A stretch of 64,000 bases of DNA from Bdellovibrionales bacterium (lineage in GTDB: Bacteria > Bdellovibrionota > Bdellovibrionia > Bdellovibrionales > JAUICD01). Made by a program: the position numbers and the translations under genes. Under the pieces are notes generated by a model. The model was not told the DNA's origin. It saw only the letters and a program-made list of their open reading frames with translations, and did not search any database. Below are positions 2,412-50,943 of the stretch, piece by piece. The stretch covers positions 384,001-448,000 of the forward strand of contig OZ253553.1 in the NCBI GenBank assembly GCA_965262715.1. Reading direction: 5' to 3'. Numbering within the stretch: position 1 is the stretch's first letter; every line of letters begins with the position of its first letter.

Positions 2412-3299
2412 CTGTATCCCTAAAAATAGTCTCGCCTCTATATCACTAAAAATGCCTCTCGCCTCTGGCGACTTTCTGGCATTGCCCCCAAACTGGCTCA
2501 CGCCGTTTGGCAAATAGGGCAATACCTAGAAAGCCTGAGGCATTTTTACTAGAAGGATATCCTCGTTTTTTAACACGATGTTAGGGAAACCGTTGTTATT
2601 TATCAGTTAGTCTAAAGACCCCAAGTCTTCAAGAAAATGCTGACTGCCTAGAAAACCTGTTCATTTTTAGTAGGAAGAATCTTCTCATTTCTTTACACCA
2701 TGTTAAGGAAAATCTTCATTTATTTATGAGTTCTAAAGCAATCTGCACAGCATTAAGTGCAGCCCCTTCCTGGCATTGCCCCCAAACTGGCTCACGCCGT
2801 TTGGCAAATAGGGCAATACCTAGAAAGCCTGAGGCATTTTTACTAGAAGGATATCCTCGTTTTTTAACACGATGTTAGGGAAACCGTTGTTATTTATCAG
2901 TTAGTCTGAAGACCCCAAGTCTTCAAGAAAATGCTGACTGCCTAGAAAACCTGTTCATTTTTAGTAGGAAGAATCTTCTCATTTCTTTACACCATGTTAA
3001 GGAAAATCTTCATTTATTTATGAGTTCTAAAGCAATCTGCACAGCATTAAGTGCAGCCCCTTCCTGGCATTGCCCCCAAACTGGCTCACGCCGTTTGGCA
3101 AATAGGGCAATACCTAGAAAGCCTGAGGCATTTTTACTAGAAGGATATCCTCGTTTTTTAACACGATGTTAGGGAAACCGTTGTTATTTATCAGTTAGTC
3201 TGAAGACCCCAAGTCTTCAAGAAAATGCTGACTGCCTAGAAAACCTGACTATTTTTAGGAGGGAGACTCTCCTCATTTTTTTACACCATGTTAAGGGAA
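2412..3299. repeat. Family-A nested-hairpin element array; 294-bp unit x ~2.6 containing orphan asd 3' ends
   Basis: CTGGCATTGCCC at 2476, 2770, 3064; outer arms CCTAAAAATAGTC (~2419) and GACTATTTTTAGG (3247). Confidence 0.95.
2716..2766 (-). pseudogene. asd: Orphan copy of asd 3' end (GAALNAVQIALELINK*); identical second copy at 3010-3060
   Basis: Aligns to 3700-3750 with 6 synonymous and 2 non-synonymous differences. Confidence 0.9.
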
Positions 3300-3429: not shown

Positions 3430-3699
3430 AAAAGACAGTACATTACCTATCTGTCTTTCCCTCTGGAGATTTTTATATGAAAACAGCATTATTTAAGTAA
3501 GGAGACTTTCCTCGCTCTTTAACAAAAGGAATTGTTTCTATTCTCTGGCAGTCTGGGAATCGGTTCCCGGCAACAGCTTGCCGGATTAACGGGTTGCCTG
3601 TTTCCCGGAAAAAAAAGAAAGTGCTAACTACCTCAAAAATCTGTTCATTTTTAGTAAGCAGATTCCCTTCGTCTCTTTACATCATGTTAAGGAAAATCT

Positions 3700-15682: not shown

Positions 15683-17020
15683 CGTAACTTCAAATCGCAA
15701 GTGCAACTCTTTTGTGTTTGTAGATATTTTTAAAAGTTGTATCACTTTAGGATTAATATTCCAACAAAGTTTTAATTATCATGAAAGATTATTGTAAATT
15801 ATTTAATTTGAATGAATGTATTTTGATGTTTATGGCAAAGTCTCGTAGTCCTCGAGCTAAAGCTCTGCGGAAGAACGATCCTTTGCCATAAACATCAAGC
15901 TGTCAAATAAGCATCTTCAGAAGTTATTATATATAAGTAAAATTAAATGGATAAACTATGAATAACTTCAGCAAACCATCTTTTGTCTATGAAACTCATT
16001 AGGAGTTAGAAAACCTAAACTCTTTCGAGGGCGATGGTTTAAAAGAGACTCAACCTTTTTTACATCCTTAGAGGCGATTTCTCTAAAATCTGTCTTCTTT
16101 GGAAAATACTGACGGATTAAACCATTCGTGTTCTCATTTAAACCTCTCTGATATGAACTGTAAGGATGTGCAAAATAAACTTTACATCCAGTATATTCAC
16201 TGATCTTCTCATGACACGAAAACTCTTTACCATTATCCAAAGTCATTGTATGAACAACCTCTCCTTTAAGAGCTTTAGAAATAGCATGAAAAACTGCCTC
16301 ATATCTCTTAGATTCTATTTTGACAATCCTCGTCTTCTTAGAACATCTATCTACCAGCGTGACTAAAGCTCCTTTATGATGTCTACCTATCATTAGATCA
16401 CCTTCCCAGTCTCCTATCCGACTCTTCTTATCTACTATCTTAGGCCTTTTATCAATGCTCACTCTATTCTTTATCTGACCCCTTTTATCAAATCTACTTG
16501 TACCATATCGCTTCTTCCGTTGCCTCTGACATCTTAAAAATTTGTAGAGATCTCCTCCTGATTGCTTATCTCCAAGAATATGCTGATAAATACTCTCATG
16601 ACTTATAGACAAACCTTTTCGTTTAAGAAAACCGGATATCTGTTCCGGACTCAAACGATCACGAAGAAACCTCTCAAGCTTATTAATGACTTTTTGTGTT
16701 ATCTTTATATGTCTATGAGAGTTTTGAAGACGATCGACTGCTTTTTCATGGGCTTGTTGAGGACGATAACCTCGCAAACCTTTGTTGCGATTCAATTCCC
16801 TATATATGGTGCTTTTATCTCGACCTACCTGAGTAGCAATTGAACTTATTGATTTTCCACTTTGCAAAAAAGCTAAAATCTGGTATCTCTCATGTTGGGT
16901 TAGATGAGTGTAATTGCTCATGGAATACTCCTTTCATTATTTAAAGAGATTGATTAGAGTATTCCTCTAACCCGCTTTAAATAACTATGCAAGGAGTTGC
17001 ACTTGCAACTTGAATCCACC
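15683..17020 (-). mobile_element. IS30-family element, copy 1 (1338 bp, TSD GTA)
   Basis: Imperfect TIRs CGTAACTTCAAATCGCAAGTGCAAC / GTTGCACTTGCAACTTGAATCCACC; flanked GTA|...|GTA. Confidence 0.97.
15968..16921 (-). CDS. IS30-family transposase
   Basis: HTH (STIYRELNRN), GDWEGD, TLDNGKEF, RGLNENTNGLIRQYFPK, LNHRPRK. Confidence 0.98.
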   Translation of the reverse strand: MSNYTHLTQHERYQILAFLQSGKSISSIATQVGRDKSTIYRELNRNKGLRGYRPQQAHEKAVDRLQNSHRHIKITQKVINKLERFLRDRLSPEQISGFLKRKGLSISHESIYQHILGDKQSGGDLYKFLRCQRQRKKRYGTSRFDKRGQIKNRVSIDKRPKIVDKKSRIGDWEGDLMIGRHHKGALVTLVDRCSKKTRIVKIESKRYEAVFHAISKALKGEVVHTMTLDNGKEFSCHEKISEYTGCKVYFAHPYSSYQRGLNENTNGLIRQYFPKKTDFREIASKDVKKVESLLNHRPRKSLGFLTPNEFHRQKMVC

Positions 17021-17072: not shown

Positions 17073-17654
17073 TTCCCGGACTACAGAGATAGCAATTAAG
17101 CAAGGTTTAACTTAGGCAAATTAGTAAACAACAATAGGCTTTCTAGTTATAAAGGTTGCGTAAGACATAATAACTGATCTTACGCAAAGATACCTCAAGA
17201 GGTTGAGACTAGTTTTTGAGTATTTTTACACAATTTATATAGAAAAGCCCCAAGTTTATCAGCTTCTCTGATTAATTTTTGATGGTTAACAAGAGTTAAT
17301 ATTGTTTGTGCTTCCCTCAGAGAACCTAAACTAATCTCATAGAACTTCCTACGCTCTTTATGACTAGACTTAGCAGAGCCTTCGGCTAGATTGAGTACAA
17401 TGCTAAGCATAGCCCTTTGAAACTGGTTCTTCATAGGTCCTCTTAAACTTAAGCTATTAGATTTATGATAGAATTGAATTGCTAGTTGATAAGTTTTGAA
17501 TTTTTTCATAATTTTTTTCTCCTTTACCTTTTGGTGGGAGAAAAAAATTAGGGAAAAGTTCAAGACAAACAGATTGCCAGTTTCCCGGGATTCCCGGTTT
17601 CCCGGACTACAGAGATAGCAATTAAGCAAGGTTTAACTTAGGCAAATTAGTAAA
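17073..17654. repeat. 56-bp identical direct repeats (17073-17128, 17599-17654) bracketing the four-helix-bundle gene
   Basis: TTCCCGGACTACAGAGATAGCAATTAAGCAAGGTTTAACTTAGGCAAATTAGTAAA in both; weaker similarity extends to ~110 bp. Confidence 0.95.
17195..17509 (-). CDS. Four-helix-bundle protein (23S rRNA IVP/bAvd-like), 104 aa
   Basis: YQLAIQF...KNQFQRAMLSIVLNLAEGSAK...RRKFYEISLGSLRE; AAGGAG RBS before ATG at 17509 (ORF-track start 17629 is too long). Confidence 0.9.
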   Translation of the reverse strand: MKKFKTYQLAIQFYHKSNSLSLRGPMKNQFQRAMLSIVLNLAEGSAKSSHKERRKFYEISLGSLREAQTILTLVNHQKLIREADKLGAFLYKLCKNTQKLVSTS

Positions 17655-19749: not shown

Positions 19750-20154
19750 TAGGTTCTATTCCATTGATATTATTAACTTATGCTGCTCATTATGAGTTTT
19801 TTTAGCTATACTTTAGACTATTTGCTTAGTTATTTATTTTATCGGTTTTTTTTCTGGACTTTTGAGCAAAAAATACATATTTTGTAGTTATTTTATTAAC
19901 GGTCTTACGTAAAATATTTTTTTGATACAACATATATATTTTTGTTGTGGTAGACTTCGTTATTTGATTTAGGTAAGTAGCTGATGAGACAAAGACTTTT
20001 TATTCCACAATAAGATTATAAAGTCATGATACTACTGGCACAAGGGTTGTCTATTGTCAGTAAAGAAGGCTGCTATAACAACATAGGTTGTAACTATTTT
20101 TGTAGGATCAGTTATTTAGTGTTTTTGTAGAAATAAAAAGATAAGGGGTTAAAA

Positions 20155-20487
20155 ATGTCAGTTGATGAGCAAGCTGAAGCAACAGGTAGGAGTTTTCAAT
20201 TAAGTGTCCTTGAGTCTCAAAAACTCGTTTTGGTGGATTTTTGGGCACCATGGTGCGTGCCGTGTAAGGCTGTAGCTCCAAAGCTGGAAGCGGTTTTGAA
20301 AGATTTAAATGGTAAATTTGATCTTGTCAAAGTAAATATTGAAGAGAACAATGAAGTTCCAAAAAATTATGATGTACGTAGCATTCCTACATTGGTTTTA
20401 TTTAAAGATGGTCAACCAATTGATCGTATGGTAGGTAATCATTCTCAAGAAGACATTAAATCTTTTGTTGAAAAATATATATCATAA
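20155..20487 (+). CDS. trxA: Thioredoxin
   Basis: LVDFWAPWCVPC, VRSIPTL. Confidence 0.95.
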   Translation: MSVDEQAEATGRSFQLSVLESQKLVLVDFWAPWCVPCKAVAPKLEAVLKDLNGKFDLVKVNIEENNEVPKNYDVRSIPTLVLFKDGQPIDRMVGNHSQEDIKSFVEKYIS

Positions 20488-20671
20488 TGGGATGTTTCAT
20501 TTTGAGCAGATAAAATATTTAGAACTGGTCTCAAAAATAAATATTTTGCATTTTGCTTTTGCGAATTAAAAGTTAAAATAGCAAGTCTGTGCTACAAGGG
20601 ACTTCGGTAACACTTTCTTCAAGACAAAAGGTAATAGAATAGATAAGTTAAATTCATATAGATGCGTGTAG

Positions 20672-20735
20672 GTCCTCTGCCGCTATTGAGAATGCCTACC
20701 ATAACTCTCTTATACATGTTTGTGCAACAAGCAAG
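20672..20735. repeat. Partial copy of the IS903-like MITE
   Basis: Reverse complement of ~36387-36450 (ATAACTCTC..TACATGTTTGTGCAACAAG). Confidence 0.7.
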
Positions 20736-20746
20736 GCTCTTGTAAA

Positions 20747-21691
20747 TTATATTTTTGTAGATAAGCTTTTTGTTTCTGTTATTTTTTGATACATTAAGCC
20801 TCCAACAAGACCTGAAGCAAAACCTCCAAGATGTGCCGTATGGGCAATATAAACAAATCCTGGTAAGGTGCTAAGATATCCTGAGATATCTGTCAGTAAC
20901 CACACTCCTATAAATAACCATGTTGGAAGAAAAATCCATCTCCACCATCCTTGTATGGGTAAAATGCCTAGTAATAACCTTACAGGCTGTCGAAAGCACA
21001 GCACAGCAAATATTCCAATAAGAGCATTGATGGAAGCGCTTGCTCCGATCAAGGGAGAAAAAGACAAACTTGATATTTTAGCAAATGTTATAGCTCCTAC
21101 ACATCCTCCTAATAAGTAATTGAATAAGAAAAAAAGATGACCAATGAGTGGCTCTAAAAATCCTCCAAAAATTAGTAAAAACCAGCAATTAAATAACAAA
21201 TGCAAGATGTTTCCATGAATGAATTGATAGCTTAAAAAATGGTACCATTCTTGATTTTTAACAGAAAGTCCAAAATAGAAGCTAGGAGCTTTTTCTTTTT
21301 GCTTAAGATATATATCTAATTTTTGATTCCAATAATCATTTTCTACTTCATCTTTAGATGAAAATAAATCTCTTGCTTTCAAAAATGACCAATCTTGAAA
21401 AGCTAATTTTCCTAGTAGCGATGTCTGCTCTAATTGACCTGACAATGAGGCTGAAGCCATATCAAGTAAAAAGTTATCATACTCTTCTTCATTGTTGATT
21501 AAATGCTGTGTGTATGCTCTCCCTTGAGCTCTTATAAACGATTTATCGCTTAATAAAGATTTTTGAAAACTTTGTACCTTCGTCTCTTCTATTTTAAAAC
21601 ATGTAAAACAAGTTACATACAATAATACAAGTATCCATGTTATAGGGGCTTTCTTGAAAGAAGGTGGTCCAGATAAAAAAGGTAGGATCAT
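20747..21691 (-). CDS. Rhomboid-family intramembrane serine protease
   Basis: FIHGNILHLLFN, IGASAS, AHTAHLGG. Confidence 0.93.
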   Translation of the reverse strand: MILPFLSGPPSFKKAPITWILVLLYVTCFTCFKIEETKVQSFQKSLLSDKSFIRAQGRAYTQHLINNEEEYDNFLLDMASASLSGQLEQTSLLGKLAFQDWSFLKARDLFSSKDEVENDYWNQKLDIYLKQKEKAPSFYFGLSVKNQEWYHFLSYQFIHGNILHLLFNCWFLLIFGGFLEPLIGHLFFLFNYLLGGCVGAITFAKISSLSFSPLIGASASINALIGIFAVLCFRQPVRLLLGILPIQGWWRWIFLPTWLFIGVWLLTDISGYLSTLPGFVYIAHTAHLGGFASGLVGGLMYQKITETKSLSTKI

Positions 21692-23670
21692 TGCTGTCCA
21701 AACTTAGAGATTAAGGTTTCTTGAATATCTTGGAATTCTTCTTTTGAAGAGACATTAGCGATACTTCTTGTTGGAGATTTTGAATAAACTGGATAACTTT
21801 GATAAGAAAACTTTTGTTGATCATTGTTTTGATCATTGACTGTTCTTAGAATATCCCATGCCTCTTTTTCTTGACCTATTTTATAAGAAGCAATGATGAG
21901 GTTTTGTGTTAGTTTTTGATTATAGGGATCCATTTCAAAGAGCTGATTTCCAATACGGGTTGCTAATATGAGATTGTTCATTTCAAAGGATTTATTGAAA
22001 AGCATAAGTCCCAATGTTCTAGCGTTCCAAGTTGAAACATCAGCTTTAAACCAGTCTTCTGCTAAATCATTGATATCTAAAGGACTGTCTGTAATAAATG
22101 CTAAAAGTTCTTTAGCTTCTTCAAAATAAGGTGAATTGTGTTGAATATAGTTTCCTTCAGAAGCATTTTTTTGTTCTTGAATTAAGCCTTTAAGTATAGC
22201 TTTTGACTCTTTAACTTTTCTTTCTTTTATCAGTCTCATTGCGCGTACTAATTGAAGAGCAGGCATTTCTATCATTTCATCTTCTAGCGCTATATAGTCT
22301 AATTTATCTCTTTGACTACAAATATTAATTTTAATATAGGCCAGAGAGTAAAGGTTATTTTCTAAAAGTAAAGGATCATTTTTCACTGTGCTAGCAAAAT
22401 CTTGGCAATTAGATATAACTTCATTTGTACAGGTTTCCTTAAGTTGTTGCAAACAGTACCAGCTTGATAACTTTAATATATCTTGTGTAGATAAAACTTG
22501 AATAGCAGATTGAAAGGCCACATGTGCTTCTTTTTTTCTTCTTAAGCCCCAAAGTGCTGCTACTCTGTGAGACATAAGATACTCTTTCAGTGGTTTAATA
22601 TGCCAAAGCTGTTGAATAATTTCTTCTTCTGCTTCAAACTCTTTAACTCTTTCAAAGTGCTTTATAGCCCATACTTTCATAAAGCTTTTTGTTTTTTGAT
22701 AATCTAAAGTGCGAAATTTCTGACTTGCTTCTTCCCATTTTTTTTGAGACCATAAATTGACAATTTGACCTAATTGACAGGCTTGACCATCTGAAGATAC
22801 TTCACAGGCTTTTTTTAAGTACTTATCAGATAGTAAAGGCTGATCATCAGAAGTAATAAAAGCATTAGCTAAGTAAGCCATATCTAGGTTTTCGTTGTTA
22901 TAAAAGGCATGCTGAGTTTCTAAATCTAGACATTGATGGTCTATCAAGTAGGCACTATGAAGTGTGAGTGCTATTTCTAGGCGTGATGTTGGATCTTCAT
23001 CATAATTGTAAGGCCATGTACTTTCTAGATCAGTGACCTTATCACAGTAAACTTTATTAGATTCTAAAAGTTTTGATATGCTTGCTTTTTCTTCACTCTT
23101 TTTTATGATTTGATAAGGATAGAAAGTTAACAGAAAAATAATGGAGCATGTAAAGGTGAGAACAATAAATTGCCCAAAAATACTTACTAGTAAAGGTGGA
23201 GCTGGAGTAAATCGGCCTCGTGTAGAGATCACAATAGATTCAGCAATGCGATCGTAAATAGGTCTTCTTTGGTGGTGAAAAAAAATGGCGAGATGAGGTA
23301 TATAGAGTAAAAAAGTACATAGGAGCCAGAAAAACTCTCTTATAATAACATTAAAAGTACTTAGAGGTTGGCCAGACCAAACATTTACCACTTGCAGTCC
23401 GGTAAGTAATTTTCCAGGGGTGCCTCCTTTTATTATTGTGAAAATGGTTCTATATAAAAATGCTAAAACAATTGAAAGTAAAATAGCTAAAAAGATTGTG
23501 ATGAGTAATGAATGGCCCTGTTGAGTAAACTTGAATATTAAAATATATTTTCTTATGGGGGATAAAAATAGACCAAAGATAGTCGCTAAAAAAATAAAGT
23601 CTATTATAAAAGCAATATAACGATCTTTGATACATGCCGGCTTATTGGTTAATAAATTTGGATTGTCCAT
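21688..23670 (-). CDS. RDD-family membrane protein with long helical/TPR-like C-terminus
   Basis: RYIAFIIDF, GGTPGKLLTGLQVV, RPIYDRIAES; ATGA overlap with rhomboid. Confidence 0.85.
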   Translation of the reverse strand: MDNPNLLTNKPACIKDRYIAFIIDFIFLATIFGLFLSPIRKYILIFKFTQQGHSLLITIFLAILLSIVLAFLYRTIFTIIKGGTPGKLLTGLQVVNVWSGQPLSTFNVIIREFFWLLCTFLLYIPHLAIFFHHQRRPIYDRIAESIVISTRGRFTPAPPLLVSIFGQFIVLTFTCSIIFLLTFYPYQIIKKSEEKASISKLLESNKVYCDKVTDLESTWPYNYDEDPTSRLEIALTLHSAYLIDHQCLDLETQHAFYNNENLDMAYLANAFITSDDQPLLSDKYLKKACEVSSDGQACQLGQIVNLWSQKKWEEASQKFRTLDYQKTKSFMKVWAIKHFERVKEFEAEEEIIQQLWHIKPLKEYLMSHRVAALWGLRRKKEAHVAFQSAIQVLSTQDILKLSSWYCLQQLKETCTNEVISNCQDFASTVKNDPLLLENNLYSLAYIKINICSQRDKLDYIALEDEMIEMPALQLVRAMRLIKERKVKESKAILKGLIQEQKNASEGNYIQHNSPYFEEAKELLAFITDSPLDINDLAEDWFKADVSTWNARTLGLMLFNKSFEMNNLILATRIGNQLFEMDPYNQKLTQNLIIASYKIGQEKEAWDILRTVNDQNNDQQKFSYQSYPVYSKSPTRSIANVSSKEEFQDIQETLISKFGQQ

Positions 23671-23701
23671 GATATATTATTTCGGTTGATTTTAAATTGA
23701 A

Positions 23702-25090
23702 CTGTATCCCTAAAAATAGTCTCGCCTCTGGCGACTTTCTGGCATTGCCCTCAGACGTGCTTACGCCGTCTGGCAAATAGGGCAATGCCTAGAAAGCCTG
23801 ACTATTTTTAGGGGGGAGACTCTCTTCGTTTCTTTACATCATGTTAAGGAAATCGTACTGTATATTCCCTAAAATGAACTGGCCTCTGTTCCACTAAAAT
23901 GCATCTCGCCTCTGGCTACTTTCTGGTGATAACCCTGATGGCTCCATCAGAAAATGGTTATCACCTAGAAAGCTTGATGCATTTTAGTAGAGAGGATATC
24001 TTCACTCTCTTACAACATGTTAGGGAAATTATTATTGTTTGTTAGTTAGCCTGAAGACTTGCGTCTTCAGAAAATGGCTTACTGCCTAGAAAGCCTGACT
24101 ATTTTTAGGGGGGAGACTCTCTTCGTTTCTTTACATCATGTTAAGGAAATCGTACTGTATATTCCCTAAAATGAACTGGCCTCTGTTCCACTAAAATGCA
24201 TCTCGCCTCTGGCTACTTTCTGGTGATAACCCTGATGGCTCCATCAGAAAATGGTTATCACCTAGAAAGCTTGATGCATTTTAGTAGAGAGGATATCTTC
24301 ACTCTCTTACAACATGTTAGGGAAATTATTATTGTTTGTTAGTTAGCCTGAAGACTTGCGTCTTCAGAAAATGGCTTACTGCCTAGAAAGCCTGACTATT
24401 TTTAAGGGGGAGACTCTCTTCGTTTCTTTACATCATGTTAAGGAAATCGTACTGTATATTCCCTAAAATGAACTGGCCTCTGTTCCACTAAAATGCATCT
24501 CGCCTCTGTTCCACTAAAATGCATCTCGCCTCTGGCTACTTTCTGGTGATAACCCTGATGGCTCCATCAGAAAATGGTTATCACCTAGAAAGCTTGATGC
24601 ATTTTAGTAGAGAGGATATCTTCACTCTCTTACAACATGTTAGGGAAATTATTATTGTTTGTTAGTTAGCCTGAAGACTTGCGTCTTCAGCAAATGGCTT
24701 ACTGCCTAGAAAGCCTGATGCATTTTAGTAGAAAGGATCTCTTCACTCTCTTACAACATGTTAGGGAAATTATTGTTGTTTGTTAGTTAGCCTGAAGGCT
24801 TACGCTATGGAATATATTCCCTTCAAGAAAATGCTGATTGCCTCAAAAACCTGTTCATTTTTAGGAGGGAGACTCTCTTCGTTTCTTTACATCATGTTAA
24901 GGAAATCGTACTGTATATTCCCTAAAAATAAACCTGCCTCTGTTTCACTAAAATGCATCTGACCTTTCGAGGCGAGCCTCTGGTCACTTTCTGGCAGTAA
25001 GCCTGAAGACTCACGCTACGGGATATATCCCCTTCAAGAAAATGCTGACTATCCAAAAACTGCTAGAAGCAGGTTCATTTTTAGGGAAAT
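23702..25090. repeat. Family-A element array; 297-bp unit x ~3.5 plus variants
   Basis: CCTAGAAAGCCTGA at 23788, 24085, 24382, 24705 (last interval +26-bp internal duplication). Confidence 0.95.
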
Positions 25091-25241
25091 GAAATAGATG
25101 CAAAAATTCAAGTTACAGATGCCCAGATATTTTGATTCCGGGTACAGTATGCCAGAGTGCCGGGTTGCCAGATTCCGGAAAAAAAGGATGCTTAAGTAGT
25201 TATGAACTATAATAAATTCATAGTTTTTGAGATAGTTCGGG

Positions 25242-26465
25242 TTACTCTATTATAAAGTCAGCTGTACCATTAAGTTGTGATCGTTTTCTGAGATACTGCC
25301 TGTGAACCATATCAAAGATATTATTGTTTGAAAGACCAATAAGATCATCTCCATATTGCTTTGATAACATTTTCAACTCATTATTTGAATCTGATGAACC
25401 TGAGCTTAAGCCTCTTATGTTTTGTAGTTTTTGTTGATTATTTAAGATATCTTGGAAACTTGGAGGCCGCCAATCTGAACTAAAAGATGAAGTGGTATAA
25501 CCATTACCATTGATGCCTTGGTTTTTTTGGATGTTAGTAATTCCATTTTCTTTTATACCTTTAACTTTTTGGTTTGCTATATTGTAGGGTGAGTTCTTAT
25601 CAGATTGAGCTTTTGCAGCTAGTCGTTTTGCTTTATTTTTTGCTGATTTGATAATTCCAGCTATTTTAGCATTTCCTTGACGTATAGCTTGTCGTTCAAT
25701 CTTTTTTTCTTGTTTTTTAAACTCTTTAAACTTTTCAGGTGGAAGACCTAAAGCTTTGAACCCTTTTTTTGTAAAAATATCTTTTGCAGGTATGCTTTTG
25801 CCTCCAGGGAGGGTTACACGATTACTTTTTGGATCAAATGTATAACCTTTGCCTTTATAATATTCAGCATCTTTTTGAGTCTGTTGGTATATTTTCTCAA
25901 CATAATCATCAAGCTCTTGATCGATAAGAGATCTTTGTAGATCTTGCAAATTAATTGTTGCAAAATAACGTCTATCATCCCAGTCTCGTTGATTAAATTC
26001 ACCTGTGGATATAGAGGGGTCATAAGGTCTTGTATCTGTAAGTTGGTCTGCAGTTGCTATGGATACTTTTTCAGAAGCCCTATGGGATGAAGTTTGCGCA
26101 GTAAGTATAGGAGCTGCAGCTGCAGCTGCTGTTGGGCTCAGTCTTTTTAGTACTTCCCAATGTGCATAATTAATAGCTATGGCTTCGGTTATAGTTTTTA
26201 TTTGCTTGCTTGCACTGGTTTTGAAAGAGTCATCTTTTGACGTTTTATAAGGAGCTATTTTATTTAGCCAACGTGCATCGGGTGGTGGTGATTGACTAAT
26301 GGCAAAATTAGGAAGAAAACTTATAATTGTAATAGCAACTAAATGCGAGATATAAAAAAAGTAATGGCTTTTTAAAAAATGATGGTTGTTCATGTTATCC
26401 CTTCTTTGATAATTATTTTCCTTAAAATAAGGCCTTTGTGTTTTTCTTTTATACAAAAAAGTCAA
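25242..26465 (-). CDS. Secreted hypothetical protein (real start probably ~26393)
   Basis: Signal-like segment after MNNHH; C-terminal IG...NIFDMVHRQY motif similar to neighbour. Confidence 0.7.
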   Translation of the reverse strand: MTFLYKRKTQRPYFKENNYQRRDNMNNHHFLKSHYFFYISHLVAITIISFLPNFAISQSPPPDARWLNKIAPYKTSKDDSFKTSASKQIKTITEAIAINYAHWEVLKRLSPTAAAAAAPILTAQTSSHRASEKVSIATADQLTDTRPYDPSISTGEFNQRDWDDRRYFATINLQDLQRSLIDQELDDYVEKIYQQTQKDAEYYKGKGYTFDPKSNRVTLPGGKSIPAKDIFTKKGFKALGLPPEKFKEFKKQEKKIERQAIRQGNAKIAGIIKSAKNKAKRLAAKAQSDKNSPYNIANQKVKGIKENGITNIQKNQGINGNGYTTSSFSSDWRPPSFQDILNNQQKLQNIRGLSSGSSDSNNELKMLSKQYGDDLIGLSNNNIFDMVHRQYLRKRSQLNGTADFIIE

Positions 26466-26474
26466 AATGGATGT

Positions 26475-27998
26475 TTATTTAAACACGTTTTGACGCCTGT
26501 CATTCATAGCTCTTGAAACTTTTTGAAAGTTTGAAAGTCCATTAGCTGAAGTAATTTCATCAGCACCCCCAACTCCTGCTATGTTACGCCCTGTTTTATT
26601 TGCTTTTTTATCAAAAAGGTTTTTAGGTAGTGCAAAACTGTTAAGGTTTTTTCTAAGTCCAGTTCCTTTGTTTTTACCTTGATAGCCACTGCCACCAAAA
26701 CCGGAAGAAGCTCCACGAGAACTGCCTACATCTCCTAAAATAGCTGTGTCTATTCCAGGATCTACATTTTCTTCATAAGGACCTTCATCACCACCTTCTT
26801 CTTCTTCTCCACCGGCACCACCAAAGCCGCCGCCACCGCCTCCAAAACCGCCGCCACCGCCTCCTCCAGGAGTAGACGCCAGTGATGGTGAGCTTGGATT
26901 ACCACTATCACCATTTCCTGTGTACCCTGGTGGTGTAAGAAGCAGATCTTCTTCATCTTCGTGATCACTTGGATCAAAGGTGGGATTTGAAAGGCTTGCT
27001 GTTGAAAGTGCTTTATTTCTTCTGGGGTTGAAGTCAGGTGAGCCTGGGAGCTCTTGCCCAGGTGGAAAATTTGTAGGCTCTACTCCTAAACATTCCATAA
27101 GACGATCGCCAGCAAGTCCTGTACAAGGAGCCTCTGGTTGTTGTGCGCCTGTTATACATTCTGTAAGTTCTCTATTTACTTGCGCGCAAGAAGATCCACT
27201 TGCTCCTGAATTTGCTACACAGTCTTGACGTCTTTGACTGATTTCACCACAAGTACCTCCTCCTGCATTCTGATCAGGGCAATCTGCTGAATTTATCACT
27301 TGTACTAAATTAGTAATCACTGATGGTCCTCCTATCACAAGAGTCCAATTTCTTTTTGAGGCGCACTCATCAGCTAGATATTGTGCGTTTGGATCAAATG
27401 GAGCAGCAGCACTGCAAGCACTTGTACATTTTTTGAGAGCAACAAGGCAGAGACCAAGAGTTGTGGTATTGATTCCGAGTGCCCACTTGTTTAACTCCTT
27501 ATTTCTTTGACAGATAGCTTGTATATCACCAGTTGCCTCAGAACTTTTGAAGGCTTGAAGTGCGGCTATAATTGCTGGTGAAAATTGAGAGGCATTGCAG
27601 GTGGATTGCCATGCAGAGCTGTGAGCTGATTGACAAGCATTAATTTTCTCTTGTTGTTCTTTTATAGTAGCTTGTATAGTAGCTTGTTGTTCTGCAATTT
27701 CCTCATTAAGCCTTTGATTAAATATTTGGCAGTTAGAATCAGGAGGGCCTACAACATCAGGGTCCTGACTACTACAGTCAGGGTAAGCAGTATTTTGAGC
27801 TTGTACTGCTTCTTGTTGTTCTGTTGGTAGGGTACTTATTCTTGTACAAGCTTTGCTGTTTGATGGTAAGGAGTCATAATCTATAGGTTTGATAAAACCA
27901 GTGGGACAGGCTGCTAATACATTATTGATATTAAGGAAAAATGAAAAAAAGATCAAAACAGATAACAAATATATTTTTTGCTTACTTAATGTTTTCAT
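26475..27998 (-). CDS. Secreted Cys-rich / Gly-rich hypothetical protein
   Basis: Signal peptide VLA|A, paired Cys, poly-Gly tract, C-terminal GLSNFQKVSRAM. Confidence 0.8.
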   Translation of the reverse strand: MKTLSKQKIYLLSVLIFFSFFLNINNVLAACPTGFIKPIDYDSLPSNSKACTRISTLPTEQQEAVQAQNTAYPDCSSQDPDVVGPPDSNCQIFNQRLNEEIAEQQATIQATIKEQQEKINACQSAHSSAWQSTCNASQFSPAIIAALQAFKSSEATGDIQAICQRNKELNKWALGINTTTLGLCLVALKKCTSACSAAAPFDPNAQYLADECASKRNWTLVIGGPSVITNLVQVINSADCPDQNAGGGTCGEISQRRQDCVANSGASGSSCAQVNRELTECITGAQQPEAPCTGLAGDRLMECLGVEPTNFPPGQELPGSPDFNPRRNKALSTASLSNPTFDPSDHEDEEDLLLTPPGYTGNGDSGNPSSPSLASTPGGGGGGGFGGGGGGFGGAGGEEEEGGDEGPYEENVDPGIDTAILGDVGSSRGASSGFGGSGYQGKNKGTGLRKNLNSFALPKNLFDKKANKTGRNIAGVGGADEITSANGLSNFQKVSRAMNDRRQNVFK

Positions 27999-28458: not shown

Positions 28459-29796
28459 CGTAACTTCAAATCGCAAGTGCAACTCTTTTGTGTTTATAGA
28501 TATTTTTAAAAGTTGTATCATTTTAAGATTAATATTTCAACAAAGTTTTAATTATCATGAAAGATTATAGTAAATTATTTAATTTGAATGAATGTATTTT
28601 GATGTTTATGGCAAAGTCTCGTAGTCCTCGAGCTAAAGCTCTGCGGAAGAACGATCCTTTGCCATAAACATCAAGCTGTCAAATAAGCATCTTCAGAAGT
28701 TATTATATATAAGTAAAATTAAATGGATAAACTATGAATAACTTCAGCAAACCATCTTTTGTCTATGAAACTCATTAGGGGTTAGAAAGCCTAAACTTTT
28801 TCGAGGGCGATGGTTTAAAAGAGACTCAACCTTTTTTACATCCTTAGAGGTGACTTCTCTAAAATCTGTCTTCTTTGGAAAATACTGACGGATTAAACCA
28901 TTCGTGTTCTCATTTAAACCTCTCTCATATGAACTGTAAGGATGTGCAAAATAAACTTTACATCCAGTATATTCACTGATCTTCTCATGACACGAAAACT
29001 CTTTACCATTATCCAAAGTCATTGTATGAACAACCTCTCCTTTAAGAGCTTTAGAAATAGCATGAAAAACTGCCTCAGATCTCTTAGATGCTATTTTGAC
29101 AATCCTCGTCTTCTTAGAACATCTATCTACCAGCGTGACTAAAGCTCCTTTATGATGTCTACCTATCATTAGATCACCTTCCCAGTCTCCTATCCGAAGC
29201 TTCTTATCTACTATCTTAGGCTTTTTATCAATGCTCACTCTATTCTTTATCTGACCCCTTTTATCAAATCTACTTGTACCATATCGCTTCTTCCGTTGCC
29301 TCTGACATCTTAAAAATTTGTAGAGATCTCCTCCTGATTGCTTATCTCCAAGAATATGCTGATAAATACTCTCATGACTTATAGACAAACCTTTTGGTTT
29401 AAGAAAACCGGATATCTGTTCCGGACTCAAACGATCACGAAGAAACCTCTCAAGCTTATTAATGACTTTTTGTGTTATCTTTATATGTCTATGAGAGTTT
29501 TGAAGACGATCGACTGCTTTTTCATGGGCTTGTTGAGGACGATAACCTCGCAAGCCTTTGTTACGATTCAATTCCCTATATATGGTGCTTTTATCTCGAC
29601 CTACCTGAGTAGCAATTGAACTTATTGATTTTCCACTTTGCAAAAAAGCTAAAATCTGGTATCTCTCATGTTGGGTTAGATGAGTGTAATTGCTCATGGA
29701 ATACTCCTTTCATTATTTAAAGAGATTGATTAGAGTATTCCTCTAACCCGCTTTAAATAACTATGCAAGGAGTTGCACTTACAACTTGAATCCACC
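28459..29796 (-). mobile_element. IS30-family element, copy 2 (TSD ATA)
   Basis: Same TIRs and length as copy 1; ATA|...|ATA. Confidence 0.97.
28744..29697 (-). CDS. IS30-family transposase
   Basis: Near-identical to 15968-16921. Confidence 0.98.
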   Translation of the reverse strand: MSNYTHLTQHERYQILAFLQSGKSISSIATQVGRDKSTIYRELNRNKGLRGYRPQQAHEKAVDRLQNSHRHIKITQKVINKLERFLRDRLSPEQISGFLKPKGLSISHESIYQHILGDKQSGGDLYKFLRCQRQRKKRYGTSRFDKRGQIKNRVSIDKKPKIVDKKLRIGDWEGDLMIGRHHKGALVTLVDRCSKKTRIVKIASKRSEAVFHAISKALKGEVVHTMTLDNGKEFSCHEKISEYTGCKVYFAHPYSSYERGLNENTNGLIRQYFPKKTDFREVTSKDVKKVESLLNHRPRKSLGFLTPNEFHRQKMVC

Positions 29797-29823: not shown

Positions 29824-32800
29824 TATGATGAGATATAAAGTTTTAAATAGCTTACAAACTCAGTTTAATAATAAAATTCGAGGCTCTGTTGTCTTTTTTA
29901 AAAACTTAAGAGGTAAGTCTTCGAATTTGATGTATCTCTTTATGATTTTTGTGGTCCCTATTTTTTTGATAGCCTTTCAAAACTGTAAAACCACTGGTTT
30001 GGACACGTCACTTTTAGATAGCGGTGAAGGGGTGAGTAATTATGATCGGGGCCATATTGTTCGAATAGATACTGAAACTGATGATTTTATAGAAGAGGGA
30101 CTTCTTCCTATCGATACAGATATAAAAATGAAGTTTATAAATGCTCATGAAGATGCTGATACTTATAGATGGACGATCAATAGAGGTTTTGATCCTATTG
30201 TGTCAGATGCTTCAACAAATGAAGAGACCTATACAACACAATTCTCTCAAGTTGGAGCTTATGATGTCTTTGCAGACTCGTATGAATCTGGAACGTTTCT
30301 GCGCTCAGCTAGTAAACGTTTTGTGGCTGGCCAGTCTTGCTCACTCACTGATATTTTAGAAATAGATCTGTATCAGGTTCTTTAAAAGTTGGTGAGTCTG
30401 CTACCTTTGGTTTAAGGTATAGTGGTGAGTTTTCTTCTACGAAATGGAAGGCAACGCTTCCTTCTGGAGAAGTAGAAGAAAAAACAGATGACGACAGTAC
30501 AGATGATGAAAATGAAGACTATAATACTTTAGAACTTTCATTTGAAAATGAAAGTTCAGGAGGTTTGGTGATTGAGGTTTCTGCCTCACATATTGATAGG
30601 AGTGAGTGTCTCACTTATAGAAAACAAAGCCTTAATGTTACTTCTACACTAAGACCTCACTTTAATCCTATAACCATTACAGATGGCACTGATGAAATAG
30701 CTGTGATGTTGGAAAACAATGACATTTATAAATATCCAAGACCAAGTGGTAACCAATATTTAGAGGTGGAAGTTCTCCATGGCCATACTTGTAATTATAA
30801 AGTTAATGAAGATGATAAAACTGAGTTTACTTGTAGTTCTGGATCGATAAATATCAGTTTAGATTCAGGTACAGCTTGCGATGAGTCCACTATAGAGCTT
30901 TGGGCATCTGGTGGTGAAGATGAAGAAGAATCAGAACAAGAAAAACGAACCTATTACAATTTCTGTCCAGAGGGTAGTGATTATTGCTATTTAGGACCTG
31001 GTGATGAAAGACAGAGCTATCATCTATGTTCTCGTGATATTGCTAGTGAAAGCTCAGAAGGTAATGTTGCAAGAACAAGCTTTGAGGTTGATCCAGCAAA
31101 TGGGAGATGTGGAGAAGCAGAAAATGCTTGTCAAATAGGTAACTTAACAGACCTTGCAGATACAGATACTCATTACAAATGGCAATGTGTAGGTATTGGT
31201 AGTGGCGCAACGGCAGATTGTGAAAAATTTATACCCATCAGTGGAGTTTGTGATAACTCTGTGAGAAATGGCTGTGGCGCAGGTGAGGCTAATGATGAGG
31301 CTATAGCAGATACAACCACTCATTACACATGGGCTTGTGAGGGACTGCATGATGGCAGTACAGCAAATGATTGTCAGATAAGAAAACCAATAAATGGAGT
31401 CTGTGATAACAGTCAAAGAAATGCTTGTTCTACTGGTGATTCTGATGATGCAGCTATAGTAGATACACCTACTCATTACAGATGGCATTGTAAAGGTTTA
31501 TATGAAGGTACGACAGCAACAGATTGTCAAAGAGAACTGCCTCCGCAACCTGTCAATGGAGTTTGTAATAATTCTAAAAGAAATGGTTGTTCTACTGGTG
31601 ATTCTAACGATGCAGTTATAGCAGATACAAATACCTATTACACATGGCACTGTGTAGGTCAGCACGGTGGCAGTACAGCAACAGGTTGTCAGATACGGAA
31701 ACCAATCAATGGAGTCTGTAACAATAACCAAAAATATAGTTGTTCTACAGGAACTTCCAATGCTTCAGCTATAGCAGATACATCTACTCTTTATAAATGG
31801 CATTGCGTAGGTAAACACGGTGGCAATACAGCAAGAAATTGTCAAAAAGCCATACCTGTCAATGGTGCTTGTGATAATTCTAAAAGAAATGGTTGTTCTA
31901 CTGGTGATTCTAACGATGCAGCTATAGTAGATACAAATACCTATTACAGATGGCACTGTGTAGGTCAGCACGGTGGCAGTACAGCAACAGGTTGTCAGAT
32001 ACGGAAACCAATCAATGGAGTCTGTAACAATAACCAAAAATATAGTTGTTCTACAGGAACTTCCAATGCTTCAGCTATCGCAGATACAAATACTTTTTAT
32101 AAATGGCATTGTGAGGGGCTGCATGGTGGTACAGCTGCAACAAACTGTCAGATAAGAAAGCCAATAAATGGAGCTTGTAATAATAGTCAAAGAAATGCTT
32201 GTTCTGCTGGTGATTCTGATGATGCAGCTGTAGCAGATACAGCTACTCTTTATAAATGGCACTGCGTAGGTGAACATGGTGGCACAACAGCAAGAAATTG
32301 TCAAAAAGCCATACCTATCAATGGAGTTTGTGATAACAATCAAAGAAATAGTTGTTCTGCTGGTACAGCTAATGATGCAGCTATCGCAGATACAAATACT
32401 CTTTATAAATGGCACTGTGTAGGCTTAAATGGTGGTACAACAGTAAGAAATTGCCAAAAAGCTATACCTATCAATGGAGTTTGTGATAATAGCAAACAAA
32501 ATGGCTGTACAACTGGCACTCCAAGTGATGCTGCGGCAGATGATACCAGCACTCATTATAAATGGTACTGTTTAGGCAGTAATGGAGGCACAATAGCAAC
32601 AGATTGTGAAAAAGCTAAACCTGTTAATGGAATTTGTGATAACACTAGAAGAAATGGTTGTTCTGCTGGTACAGCTAATGCTTCAGCTATCGCAGATACA
32701 AATACTCTTTATAAATGGCACTGCGAAGGTCTGCATGGTGGCGCGACAGTAACAGATTGTGAAAAAACAAGATCTACAGATGGTGCTTGTGATAATAGTA

Positions 32801-33393
32801 GGATTAATAGATGTCGGAATGGGACTACTTTAAATGATATAGATGATACGGATACTCTATACAAGTGGCAGTGTGTAGGCTTAAATGGAGGCAGAACACT
32901 TACTTGTTCAAAGTCTAAGGCAGATTGTTCATTCCATAAATACTTCTGTGATGAAGGCTCTGAAGAAGATACAGGTGAAGGTTCTCCAGTACCTCCTGTA
33001 CCTGAATCTGGAGAAGCAACCCATTACACATGTCCATGTGTAAGTGATGATCGTAAAGCAGTCGCTTCTTGTAGAACACTTAAAAAAACAGCATGGTGTG
33101 GTGGAGATGTTGGTGCCATTGAGGGAAAGGATGTTGACGTGTATCTTGTTCGTATCAATACATGTCTGATAGGTACACCTAGTGATATTACAGATACAGA
33201 AGATATGCATAAATGGAAGTGTGATTGGTATGAATCTGTAGCTTTTTGTTCTGTTGTTAAACATGCAGAGTGTAGGCCATCTTCTGTAAAACTTTGTAAT
33301 AATGGTGCAACACGCACTTCTTATAGTCAAGAGGCAGGTACATGGAACTGTGCAGGTGGTACAACTAGCGTTAGTTGTTCAAGAGACGAATAA
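29824..33393 (+). pseudogene. Large FQNC-type lipoprotein with PKD-like domain and ~12 Cys-rich 51-aa repeats; frameshift near 30355-30383
   Basis: IAFQNC lipobox; the frame of ORF 30565 is open back to ~30353 and overlaps the end of the first ORF; NGVCDNS..CS.G..DT.T.Y.WHC.G..GG repeats. Confidence 0.8.
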
Positions 33394-33667: not shown

Positions 33668-33945
33668 TCAAAATGAACTGGCCTCTTGAGGCGAGCCTCT
33701 CGAGGTTGATTTATTTTGAGTGAAACGAATTAGGTGCAAAAATTTAAAGCAGATCCCTGTTACCTGATACTGATGCCAGATTGCCGGACTGCCAGATCCC
33801 GGAATAGAGATGTTGTAAAATGCAAATATTTATTTTTGAGAGGGCTTCTAAATTTTCTAGGTATTAGCCATTTTTGAAAGCGACAAGCCTTCAGGCTAAT
33901 ACCAGAAAGTTACTAAAAGTGGATTTATTTTGAGTGAAACAAAGA
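33668..33945. repeat. Mosaic of family-A and family-C repeat modules
   Basis: 33790-33850 is the reverse complement of 6849-6912; TTCTAGGTATTAGCC/GGCTAATACCAGAAAG hairpin. Confidence 0.75.
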
Positions 33946-37336: not shown

Positions 37337-38143
37337 ATGTAAAATAAGGGAAAGGATTTCCTTAACATGATGTTAAACAACGGAGGGAGTCTCCCTAGTA
37401 AAATGCATCTTTCTTTCTAGGCAGTCAGCATTTTCTTGAAGGGGACACATCCCGTAACGTGAGCCTTCAGGCTGACTAGTAAATAATAACAGTTTCCCTA
37501 ACATAATGTAAGAGAATAAGGAGAGTCTCCCTACTAAAATGCATCTTTCTTTCTAGGCGATAACCATTTTCTGATGGAGCCATCAGGGTTATCGCCAGAA
37601 AGTAGCCAGAGTTAAAAGGTGTGTTGTTTTTTTAGAAAAAACAAGGAAAAAATCTTTGGAGCAATGACTTGATGTTTTAAGCTAAGCCTCGAAGTCCTCG
37701 AGTGATCGCTTGTGTAGCGATCACTCTGCGGAATATCTCGTCTTTAGCTTAAAACATCAATTCTCAAGCTGCTATGAAAAGATTTGGGTGATTTGTAAGG
37801 AGAAGGATATAGCAGAGAAGATGTAAAATAAGGGAAAGGATTTCCTTAACATGATGTTAAACAACGGAGGGAGTCTCTCTACTCAAAATAAACGGATTTT
37901 CTAGGCAGTCAGCATTTTCTTGAAGGGGACACATCCCGTAACGTGAGTCTTCAGGCTGACTAGTAAATAATAACAGTTTCCCTAACATAATGTAAGAGAA
38001 TGAGGAGAGTCTCCCTACTAAAATGCATCTTTCTTTCTAGGCGATAACCATTTTCTGATGGAGCCATCAGGGTTATCGCCAGAAAGTAGCCAGAGGCTAG
38101 ATGCATTTTAGTGAAACAGAGGCAGGTTTATTTTTAGGGAAAC
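37337..38143. repeat. Family-A array (reverse orientation): two ~275-bp units 484 bp apart with a family-B element (37645-37820) between them
   Basis: ATGTAAAATAAGGGAAAGGATTTCCTTAAC at 37337 and 37821; CTGATGGAGCCATCAG hairpin shared with the 23.7-25 kb array. Confidence 0.92.
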
Positions 38144-50426: not shown

Positions 50427-50583
50427 TGTTTTTTATATAATGAGTTTTCTAATGGAGGTTATTTTAAAAGTAAGCTTTTTTATTATGTCTATTATATAAT
50501 AGTTATCCTAACAAAGTCATTTACAATCTTTAAAGATTTTTTTGATGTCCTAAACCAAACTTTACCTTGTATGTTCTTGAATC

Positions 50584-50943
50584 ATTGCCAGAAAGTGACC
50601 AGAGGTCAGACTATTTTTAGGGATAAGGCCTGATTTCCTTAACATTTTGTAAAGAGAGGAGGAGAGTCTCCCTCCTAAAGATAGTCAGGCTTTCTAGGCA
50701 TTGCTCTATTTGCCAAACGGCGTGAGCCAGTTTGGGAGCAATGCCAGAAAGTGACCAGAGGTCAGACTATTTTTAGGGATAAGGCCTGATTTCCTTAACA
50801 TTTTGTAAAGAGAGGAGGAGAGTCTCCCTCCTAAAGATAGTCAGGCTTTCTAGGCATTGCTCTATTTGCCAAACGGCGTGAGCCAGTTTGGGAGCAATGC
50901 CAGAAAGTGACCAGAGGTCAGACTATTTTTAGGGATAAAGCCT
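50584..50943 (-). repeat. Family-A monomer tandem repeat, 156-bp unit x ~2.3
   Basis: GCCAGAAAGTGACCAGAGG at 50587, 50743, 50899. Confidence 0.95.

What the first reader, a model, noticed from the sequence alone, without database searches (positions are those of the whole stretch)
23702..25090. Family A: ~150-bp nested-hairpin element with compensatory changes and swappable inner hairpins
Seen at 2412-3299, 3640-3696, 7026-7250, 23702-25090, 33668-33945, 37357-38143 and 50584-50943. Layout: (CTG)TATCCC-outer arm-TCGCCTCTGGNNA-CTTTCT-GG-inner hairpin-CC-T-AGAAAG-CCT-outer arm-tail ending CATGTTA(A/G)GGAAA. Arms covary: TAAAAATAGTC/GACTATTTTTA, TAAAAATGCCTC/GAGGCATTTTTA, TAAAATGCATC/GATGCATTTTA; TTGCCC/GGGCAA vs TTGCTC/GAGCAA; GGTGATAACC/GGTTATCACC vs GGCGATAACC/GGTTATCGCC. 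Unpaired parts (GCCTCT loop, bulged T, AAAT bulge) stay constant, while at least three different inner hairpins are used. Inference: selection acts on a folded RNA or ssDNA, as for REP/BIME, Rickettsia palindromic elements or attC sites. I do not recognise the family.
Basis: partly seen in the sequence, partly recalled or inferred. Interest (0 to 1): 0.8.

Follow-up and report, generated by a model that had tools for sequence, protein, structure and literature searches.

The report
Folded repeat docking at gene ends
Hundreds to over a thousand copies of a 150-base branched hairpin repeat lie between the genes of one uncultured Bdellovibrionales genus, with one fixed end placed against stop codons and tRNA ends; it likely spreads by being copied into free DNA ends, and none of the usual transposases or reverse transcriptases was found in the genome where it spread most recently.

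Summary
Real. The window holds 26 profile hits of a ~150-bp element; the genome holds 447 (58 kb) and a sister species 1,290 (5.9% of its chromosome); elsewhere in the order it was not found. Five helices covary, also after tree correction. New here: insertion is polar. One end is sharp and abuts stop codons and tRNA ends (CCA or +1) in both genomes; the other carries a 0-43-nt tail, with target deleted or duplicated by variable lengths. So it is not an ordinary MITE or attC site. The sister genome shows recent spread, yet no RAYT/Y1, Y2, IS110 or reverse transcriptase was found. Best reading (0.5): a selfish repeat copied from a single-stranded folded intermediate into free 3' ends; enzyme unidentified. 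Four-helix-bundle (Avd-like) and Rpn nuclease genes are favoured targets, but both occur without the element. The scan had already noted this family elsewhere in this genome. New variant of the REP/RPE kind; interest 0.55.

The parts
23702..23852 (+). Outer helix P1, side hairpin P2, helices P3-P5, then unpaired tail ending ATGTTAAGGAAA
23860..23885 (+). 26-nt 5' piece of a unit of another subtype, ending at the P2 loop; inferred left half of an older copy split by a newer insertion, or a restart product
   Evidence: such pieces precede 31/177 outer 5' ends in G000 and 140/525 blocks in G001
23886..24029 (+). Full unit, second subtype
24039..24149 (+). 3' remainder of a split unit (profile positions 34-144)
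24157..24446 (+). Second 297-bp tandem period: 5' piece, full unit 24183-24326, remainder 24336-24446
   Evidence: (family D7)
24454..24769 (+). Third period: doubled 5' piece, full unit 24506-24649, remainder 24658-24769
24780..24905 (+). 3' remainder with a lengthened inner hairpin
24927..25090 (-). Head-to-head copy lacking the tail; scores on both strands
25091..25208 (-). Not part of the element: end of an IS1595-type miniature element (terminal motif at 25199-25208), 7-bp repeats, and the leader of a four-helix-bundle cassette, into which the copy at 24927-25090 is inserted
2412..3299 (+). Array: 5' piece, full unit 2438-2590, five remainders, with duplicated 3' end of the neighbouring asd gene between periods
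3617..3695 (+). 3' part of a unit directly behind the asd stop codon
7095..7249 (-). Full unit inside an IS1595-type miniature element
33851..33938 (-). Degenerate partial unit
37357..38143 (-). Two periods of unit plus remainder, separated by another palindromic repeat family
50581..50943 (-). Two full tandem units and a 5' fragment; the first unit supplies the TAA stop of the cobalamin adenosyltransferase gene (50929-51498)

Best explanation
This is a non-coding repeat present in 447 to 1,290 copies per genome that likely spreads selfishly through a single-stranded, folded intermediate whose 3' end would be copied into a free 3' end in the chromosome. Inferred steps: (1) the minus strand is released as ssDNA or RNA and is recognised by its fold and by its two invariant ends; (2) a chromosomal 3' end, from a nick, a stalled fork or an RNA end, switches onto the intermediate's free 3' tail with 0-5 nt of microhomology or extra bases; (3) a polymerase copies through the element and some donor flank; (4) it rejoins the chromosome up- or downstream, giving the variable duplication or deletion; (5) arm-to-arm copying and recombination between copies keep the stems perfect and shuffle modules. 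The enzyme is not identified. The host repair polymerase, helped by the four-helix-bundle (Avd-like) protein whose own cassettes also abut stop codons, is my leading guess. Rpn nucleases are a possible source of breaks.
For: The opposite strand has the lower energy in 120/131 (RNA) and 112/131 (DNA). Its apical loops are GNNA. Junctions: 32 distinct filled/empty comparisons in G000 show tails of 0-34 nt and target changes from 84 bp duplicated to 59 bp lost. Between 193 near-identical unlinked G001 pairs, identity runs a median 3 nt past the sharp end and 12 nt past the ragged end. Docking: the sharp end lies within 10 nt of a same-strand stop in 24/177 (G000) and 72/451 (G001) outer ends, against 3/150 and 5/214 for the other end and 13/235 for IS and MITE ends (p = 0.005). 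Counts fall from 30 (0-10 nt) to 6 (31-50 nt) in G001. The sharp end is within 6 nt of a tRNA end at 8 of 34 tRNAs in G000 and 7 of 37 in G001 (one further Ile match dropped as chance), mostly different tRNAs, against 1 and 0 for the other end; about 0.1 is expected. Recent spread without a known mobiliser: 39/694 G001 copies are identical, and 148/694 within 3 mismatches, to an unlinked copy with an unrelated flank. G001 gave no Y1, RT, Y2, IS110 or primase-polymerase hit. RpnA leaves 3'-OH ends that prime polymerase, and its authors propose template switching (PMC5350276, passages). PF05635 is reported as homologous to Avd (PMC10053308, passages).
Against: No enzyme, intermediate or transcript was observed; every mechanistic step is inferred from junctions. 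Part of the end asymmetry is built in, because the tail adds distance at the ragged end. Allowing 50 nt there leaves G000 level (24/177 vs 16/150) and only G001 clearly asymmetric (72/451 vs 12/214). Flanks at the sharp end are not richer in hairpins than other intergenic DNA (23/169 vs 40/300). Helix P5 in G000 shows the opposite wobble sign (28 G·T vs 18 A·C). Copies are related, so wobble counts are not independent. The four-helix-bundle cassette is not specific: none of 18 G004 cassette loci carries the element, and G021 (18) and G025 (11) have many such genes with no element found. Rpn is not specific either: G003 has 16 and G022 has 14 with no element found, and only 7/38 Rpn ORFs in G000 are near one (background 11%). 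The predicted four-helix-bundle model matches Avd itself only weakly (rank 45, E 0.57, TM 0.56). G001 is 90% complete by markers, and the Y2 search rang in no control genome.
Confidence: 0.5

Rival explanations
1. A REPIN-like element moved by a HUH (Y1/RAYT or rolling-circle) transposase that has been lost, is missing from the assemblies or arrives transiently; the sharp end is the cleavage site and the ragged end reflects variable termination.
For: Extragenic, clustered, self-inserting and tandemly amplified like REPINs (PMC3116915, passages). REP termini often supply stop codons (PMC3733652, passages). The sharp end begins CT in about half of 169 flanks (C 0.51, T 0.77); CT as the E. coli TnpA-REP cleavage site is recalled. 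A GTAG-like word sits before the tail (313/446 in G001, 37/131 in G000). A family member, G002, has two RAYT-like genes.
Against: The only Y1 gene in G000 is an IS200 transposase with its own ends. G001 has none by Pfam, tblastn or a custom profile although its copies are the youngest. The G002 genes carry their own short palindromes, not this element. No consensus hairpin follows the GTAG word. No leading/lagging bias (99 vs 105 loci). Variable duplications up to 88 bp are not expected from strand transfer (own knowledge).
Confidence: 0.2
2. Insertion is more or less random and the positions are made by selection: the host tolerates or keeps copies that act as 3' stabilisers or terminators right behind genes, and spacer DNA erodes up to essential borders.
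For: The sharp end is also close to gene starts (21/111 within 30 nt). In 25 G001 genes whose stop lies at or in the element, 22 differ from the G000 homologue by at most about 15 terminal residues; the other three are Rpn genes.
Against: At tRNA-Ala(TGC) and at an att-like copy of its end, the downstream flank is retained behind the element, so nothing eroded. None of 11 occupied syntenic intergenic sites is shared by the two genomes. The better-folding strand is the antisense one in these positions. Load reaches 5.9% of the chromosome and breaks CRISPR arrays.
Confidence: 0.15
3. A bacterial SINE-like retroelement: the folded strand is an RNA copied by a reverse transcriptase borrowed from a group II intron, retron or phage, primed by tRNA or DNA ends and template-jumping from RNA 5' ends.
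For: Junction polarity resembles target-primed reverse transcription (own knowledge). Exact fusion to CCA and to tRNA +1 on the antisense strand. 256 of 446 loops are GNRA. G000 holds a group II intron RT and a retron RT.
Against: No RT in G001 by Pfam or tblastn. 138 of 446 loops are GNYA, which suits DNA loops as well (own knowledge). More copies lack the sharp end than the ragged end (136 vs 51 of 447), the reverse of retroposon truncation, though nested splitting explains many.
Confidence: 0.1
4. An ordinary MITE moved by a DDE transposase that recognises its imperfect terminal inverted repeats.
For: The two invariant ends form an imperfect ~11-bp inverted repeat (consensus). Some copies ride inside IS1595-type miniature elements.
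Against: No fixed-length target duplication. The ends of the multi-copy IS30, IS1634-like, IS5-like, IS256, IS3 and IS1595 families do not match. Strongly polar junctions.
Confidence: 0.04
5. attC-like recombination sites of an integron or mini-islands of a tyrosine integrase.
For: One strand folds with a conserved extrahelical base; copies sit at tRNA 3' ends and some carry duplicated tRNA pieces.
Against: The two tyrosine recombinases of each genome are not flanked by it. Junctions are not conservative. The terminal word ends GTTARGG, not in a pyrimidine (attC core recalled). No cassette-like spacing.
Confidence: 0.01

Closest known systems
REP / REPIN / BIME repeats with RAYT (TnpA-REP) transposases
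   Same: Hundreds of extragenic copies, clusters by self-insertion, tandem periods with flanking DNA, termini that give stop codons, mosaic arrays (PMC3116915, PMC3733652, PMC6006769; passages).
   Different: 150-nt three-way junction rather than a 21-65-nt hairpin or an inverted doublet; no flanked Y1 gene found; polar junctions with variable target duplication or loss; docking at tRNA ends.
Rickettsia palindromic elements (RPE)
   Same: About 150 bp, palindromic, lineage-restricted, mobiliser not established (size and number from PMC10969869, passage; the rest recalled).
   Different: RPEs often insert in frame into genes; here 3 of 447 hits lie inside called ORFs and insertions in genes break them. 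No sequence link was tested beyond Rfam.
Bacterial MITEs (Correia, ERIC, RUP)
   Same: Size, non-autonomy, imperfect inverted ends, closeness to genes.
   Different: No fixed target duplication and no IS with matching ends.
Four-helix-bundle (PF05635 / TIGR02436, 23S-IVS, Avd-like) gene cassettes with 7-bp repeats
   Same: Dispersed multi-copy in both carrier genomes (19 and 14); cassette ends abut stop codons in several G004 loci; favoured target of the element.
   Different: The element has no ORF and no 7-bp repeats; cassettes occur in many genomes without it.
Integron attC sites
   Same: One strand folds preferentially, with a conserved bulge; sequence varies while structure stays.
   Different: No integron integrase, no cassette layout, non-conservative junctions.

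Membership tests
REP/REPIN-RAYT | A RAYT (Y1 HUH) gene flanked by the repeat | tested here: not met
   One IS200 TnpA in G000, unflanked; none in G001
REP/REPIN-RAYT | GT(A/G)G-type tetranucleotide at the foot of a short hairpin | tested here: inconclusive
   GTAG in 313/446 (G001) and 37/131 (G000), but no consensus hairpin behind it on either strand
REP/REPIN-RAYT | Unit is an inverted doublet of short REPs | tested here: not met
   Asymmetric unit: three-way junction plus tail
REP/REPIN-RAYT | High copy, extragenic, clustered, often touching stop codons | tested here: met
REP/REPIN-RAYT | Cleavage of the folded strand by the transposase | not testable with these tools
   needs biochemistry
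IS200/IS605-type single-strand transposition | Preference for the lagging-strand template | tested here: inconclusive
   99 vs 105 loci, but the GC-skew curve of G000 is irregular
MITE of a DDE insertion sequence | Terminal inverted repeats | tested here: inconclusive
   Imperfect ~11-bp match between the invariant ends
MITE of a DDE insertion sequence | Fixed-length target-site duplication | tested here: not met
MITE of a DDE insertion sequence | Autonomous IS with the same ends in the genome | tested here: not met
   Multi-copy IS families of G000 inspected; single-copy IS ends were not inspected
Integron attC | Cognate integrase beside an array of gene cassettes; conservative junctions | tested here: not met
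Rickettsia palindromic elements | Frequent in-frame insertion in protein genes | tested here: not met
   3/447 hits inside ORFs; insertions in real genes split them
Retron msr-msd or other retroelement | Linked reverse transcriptase | tested here: not met
   G000 RTs are a group II intron (two copies) and a retron with one copy about 1.2 kb away behind tRNA-Asp; none in G001
Known structured RNA (Rfam 15) | Score above a family's gathering threshold | tested here: not met
   0 hits; only five sub-threshold plant or animal small-RNA matches, E 0.36-4.6

The most novel reading that the evidence does not exclude
A class of bacterial mobile repeats that needs neither a transposase of known type nor a resident reverse transcriptase: a folded single strand is bound by the Avd-like four-helix-bundle protein and copied by host polymerase onto ends generated where transcripts end (tRNA CCA and +1, stop codons). 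The element would be the gene-less passenger of the four-helix-bundle cassettes, giving that widespread orphan protein family a role in mobility.
Probability: 0.15. Interest if true: 0.88.

Novelty: new variant of a known kind. Interest (0 to 1): 0.55.

Why it matters
How small palindromic repeats without a RAYT (RPE-type, ERIC-type) multiply is an old open question. This family offers over 1,700 copies in two single-contig genomes, one with very young copies, many paralogous empty sites and a clear junction signature that rules out the usual DDE and integrase routes. It makes a third route testable and names two candidate helpers. It also shows that strong, tree-corrected covariation can mark a selfish repeat rather than an RNA gene, which matters for RNA-motif surveys. 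At 6% of a chromosome it rewrites protein C-termini and breaks CRISPR arrays and defence nuclease genes.

Tried and rejected
Mobiliser searches that found nothing linked to the element: Y1, RT, Y2 (no control rang, so weak), GIY-YIG (one hit per genome in a 612-653-aa frame, read as UvrC), tyrosine recombinases, primase-polymerase, TnpB (only the Cas12-sized effectors), IS110 (99), DUF559 (100), a HUH motif scan. Ku/LigD, relaxases, Rep proteins and GxxExxY were not searched. Hairpin-target idea: rejected as a general rule. Tail as inverted copy of the flank: rejected (5.97 vs 5.96 matches). Rpn as specific partner: weakened by G003, G022 and the G004 locus. Four-helix-bundle gene as flanked cognate gene: rejected in that form. 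Presence in a second genus (G004): rejected; its hits lie on three contigs whose proteins are 87-93% identical to G000 against 43-56% for three other stretches, so they look misbinned. CRISPR spacer against the element: best scores 16-17 vs control maximum 16, gapped; not accepted. No RNA holder listed. Contigs laid on 19800-27500 gave no empty site. Hammerhead, theta-ribozyme, dif/Xer and CtrA-box likenesses were considered from memory and dropped for lack of the required pairings or context. Paper searches found no description of this family or of this targeting; the library lacks most subscription papers, and no supplements were read.

Full report
1. Observation. The window (G000:C1:384001-448000; 2.94 Mb, one contig, 33.6% GC) carries the element at all seven loci named. 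A profile built from G000 copies gives 26 hits in the window and 447 in the genome, 278 full length, 58 kb, with none in the reversed genome. Only 3 of 447 lie inside called ORFs. Rfam has no match. The 16S sequence looked Bdellovibrio-like to me (own reading), and a pattern scan returned 78 of 80 shown loci from one record titled Bdellovibrionales bacterium.

2. Distribution. Of 41 genomes searched with the DNA, three matched: G000, G001 (same genus) and G004. The terminal 11-mer occurs 366 times in G000, 1,147 in G001, 12 in G004 and at most 15 times in each of the other 148 genomes of the order, where the reversed control gives similar numbers. The G004 hits lie on three small contigs whose proteins are 87-93% identical to G000, against 43-56% for three other G004 stretches, so they look misbinned from a close relative of G000. 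The family is therefore confined to one genus among those searched. G001, read in 129 stretches, holds 1,290 hits, 738 full length, 151 kb or 5.9% of the chromosome. Its copies are young: 39/694 are identical and 148/694 within three mismatches of an unlinked copy with an unrelated flank, against 0/239 and 18/239 in G000 (same-length comparisons only).

3. Structure. From 278 full hits I kept 131 distinct copies of 140-156 nt (of 189 distinct). The 19 best MI-APC pairs are all helix pairs. The fold is an outer helix P1 (12 bp), a side hairpin P2 (5 bp, 3-nt loop), P3 (6 bp), one bulged base, P4 (10 bp), a 5-6-nt asymmetric bulge and an apical hairpin P5, followed by a 40-nt tail with no consensus pairing. 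Pairing is 94-97% in P1-P4. Independent counting on 20 copies gives 93.8% paired, 0/500 shuffles, and 30-50% for slid partners. On trees built without the tested helix, 22 of 23 pairs change jointly in 0.46-1.0 of their changes, against control means of 0.11-0.37. Modules are shuffled: 102 combinations in 131 copies.

4. Which strand folds. The reverse complement has the lower energy in 120/131 copies as RNA and 112/131 as DNA. Its apical loops are GNNA: 256 GNRA and 138 GNYA among the 446. P5 in G000 goes the other way (28 vs 18), where the alignment is poor. Either selection for wobble pairs or cytosine deamination in a single-stranded intermediate would give this bias; both point to the minus strand (inference). 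RNA versus ssDNA is not settled. Parsimony finds about 144 direct pair-to-pair changes, 45 of them transversions, against 23 mismatch-to-pair changes, so arm copying or module swapping contributes to the covariation.

5. Junctions. Filled and empty paralogous sites were found for 54 of 213 blocks in G000 (32 distinct) and 45 of 525 in G001 (31 distinct). The 3' end carries 0-43 further bases, and the target resumes anywhere from 88 bp back to 76 bp ahead; these limits are near my search bounds. Seven of 54 isolated copies have long flank duplications, against about 1% in shuffled pairs. Near-identical copies share a median 3 nt beyond the sharp end and 12 nt beyond the ragged one. No multi-copy IS has matching ends. 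A separate IS1595-type miniature family carries some copies, including the one at the right end of the flagged array.

6. Where it lands. The sharp end lies within 10 nt of a same-strand stop codon in 24/177 and 72/451 outer ends, against 3/150 and 5/214 for the ragged end and 13/235 for IS ends. Often the element's own TAA ends the gene, changing only the last few residues. The sharp end sits within 6 nt of a tRNA end at 8 of 34 tRNAs in G000 and 7 of 37 in G001, either behind CCA in the sense direction or in front of +1 on the antisense strand; only Asp and Ser(GCT) are shared. About 0.1 such cases are expected in G000. It inserts into its own side loop, which explains the split pieces in the flagged array. 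It hit the type V CRISPR repeat in both genomes at different bases. Of 905 junctions tested, 32 fall inside Rpn coding sequence and 26 inside four-helix-bundle coding sequence (20 and 14 distinct flanking 10-mers), against about 39 in all other plausible genes by my reading of the list; paralogous coding DNA is 58, 7 and 492 kb. There is no replication-strand bias and no general excess of hairpins in flanks.

7. Search for the enzyme. The single Y1 gene of G000 is an IS200 transposase with its own ends. G001 gave no Y1, RT, Y2, IS110 or primase-polymerase hit, and its tyrosine recombinases and GIY-YIG hit are not linked. Two families stand out as neighbours. Four-helix-bundle genes (TIGR02436) number 19 and 14 in the carriers; 12/19 in G000 have a copy within 300 bp (random positions 9%) and 24/24 ORFs in G001 within 200 bp (background 25%). 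The protein folds like 2RLD and 2GSC (TM 0.91, 0.85) and only weakly like Avd; a paper reports homology of the family to Avd (PMC10053308), which works with the DGR reverse transcriptase (PMC6182149). But 18 G004 cassette loci have no element, though several of their ends abut stop codons. Rpn genes have a copy within 200 bp in 51/56 ORFs in G001 but 7/38 in G000, and G003 and G022 have 16 and 14 with no element found. Both are best read as favoured targets and possible helpers, not proven mobilisers.

8. Mechanism. A fold read on one strand, one sharp and one ragged end, variable duplication or loss of target, restart-like 5' pieces and module shuffling fit copying of a single-stranded intermediate onto a free chromosomal 3' end, followed by rejoining (0.5). 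RpnA products prime polymerase and a template-switch model was proposed for them (PMC5350276), which shows that the chemistry exists. Rivals are a lost or transient HUH transposase (0.2), selection on terminator-like copies (0.15), borrowed reverse transcriptase (0.1), MITE (0.04) and attC (0.01).

9. Comparison and novelty. It works like REPINs and RPEs but fails their membership tests. I found no description in ten paper searches of an incomplete library. Papers were seen as passages only (PMC3733652, PMC3116915, PMC6006769, PMC5350276, PMC10969869, PMC6182149, PMC10053308, PMC8700078); no supplements. The scan had already reported this family at other places in this genome, and four-helix-bundle cassettes docking at CCA ends and stop codons in other genomes (unchecked notes). 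The additions here are the folding strand, the polar junctions, the replicated docking, the restriction to one genus and the lack of known mobilisers in the genome with the youngest copies. Verdict: new variant of a known kind, interest 0.55.

Noticed in passing
G000:C1:2198524-2198955: Four tandem tRNA-Trp-derived copies (89-bp period) with an 8-nt anticodon loop and no CCA, directly upstream of the real tRNA-Trp.
   Followed up: partly
G000:C1:2605196 and 156807-156832: A spacer of the type V CRISPR array matches the own chromosome 26/26, next to an element and four-helix-bundle locus.
   Followed up: no
G000:C1:2591988-2601755: Two large Cas12-sized ORFs (1,334 and 1,407 aa) beside cas4/cas1/cas2-like genes and a 60-repeat array; gene names are my reading of the N-termini.
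   Followed up: no
G000:C1:2693529-2694236: A piece of the element-invaded CRISPR trailer has been copied 86 kb away, near a short cas12 5' fragment.
   Followed up: no
L018:1282-3054: Retron St85-type effector and reverse transcriptase fused in one 590-aa ORF, in an island behind tRNA-Asp.
   Followed up: partly
G004:C1, C4, C11 (L329-L331): These contigs look misbinned from a close relative of G000 (87-93% protein identity).
   Followed up: yes
window 25091-25208 and 7250-7368; about 90 motif hits genome-wide: IS1595-type miniature elements whose ends match the resident IS1595 transposase; many carry 7-bp repeats, a four-helix-bundle gene or this element.
   Followed up: partly
window 17195-17629 (-): Intact four-helix-bundle cassette with 7-bp repeats and a hairpin over its ribosome-binding site; 19 copies in G000, well conserved across three genomes.
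   Followed up: partly
window 37640-37770: A further palindromic repeat family with 12-13-bp inverted ends, often following the element.
   Followed up: no
G000:C1:476745-490607: CRISPR-like 29-nt repeats with copies of the element inserted right behind the repeat palindrome.
   Followed up: no
L013, L014 (G002): Two RAYT-like Y1 genes in a family member, each flanked by its own short palindromes.
   Followed up: partly
L299-L308 (G022): Rpn genes of G022 share non-coding flanking segments of 100-200 bp, unrelated to this element.
   Followed up: no
window 30565-33393: 942-aa protein with about twelve 51-aa cysteine-rich repeats and no Pfam hit.
   Followed up: no
window 15968-16921, 28744-29697, 54700-55653: Three near-identical IS30-type copies; 27 in the genome.
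   Followed up: partly
G000:C1:2606838: One CRISPR spacer resembles the element over about 22 of 28 bases with gaps; not above control.
   Followed up: yes
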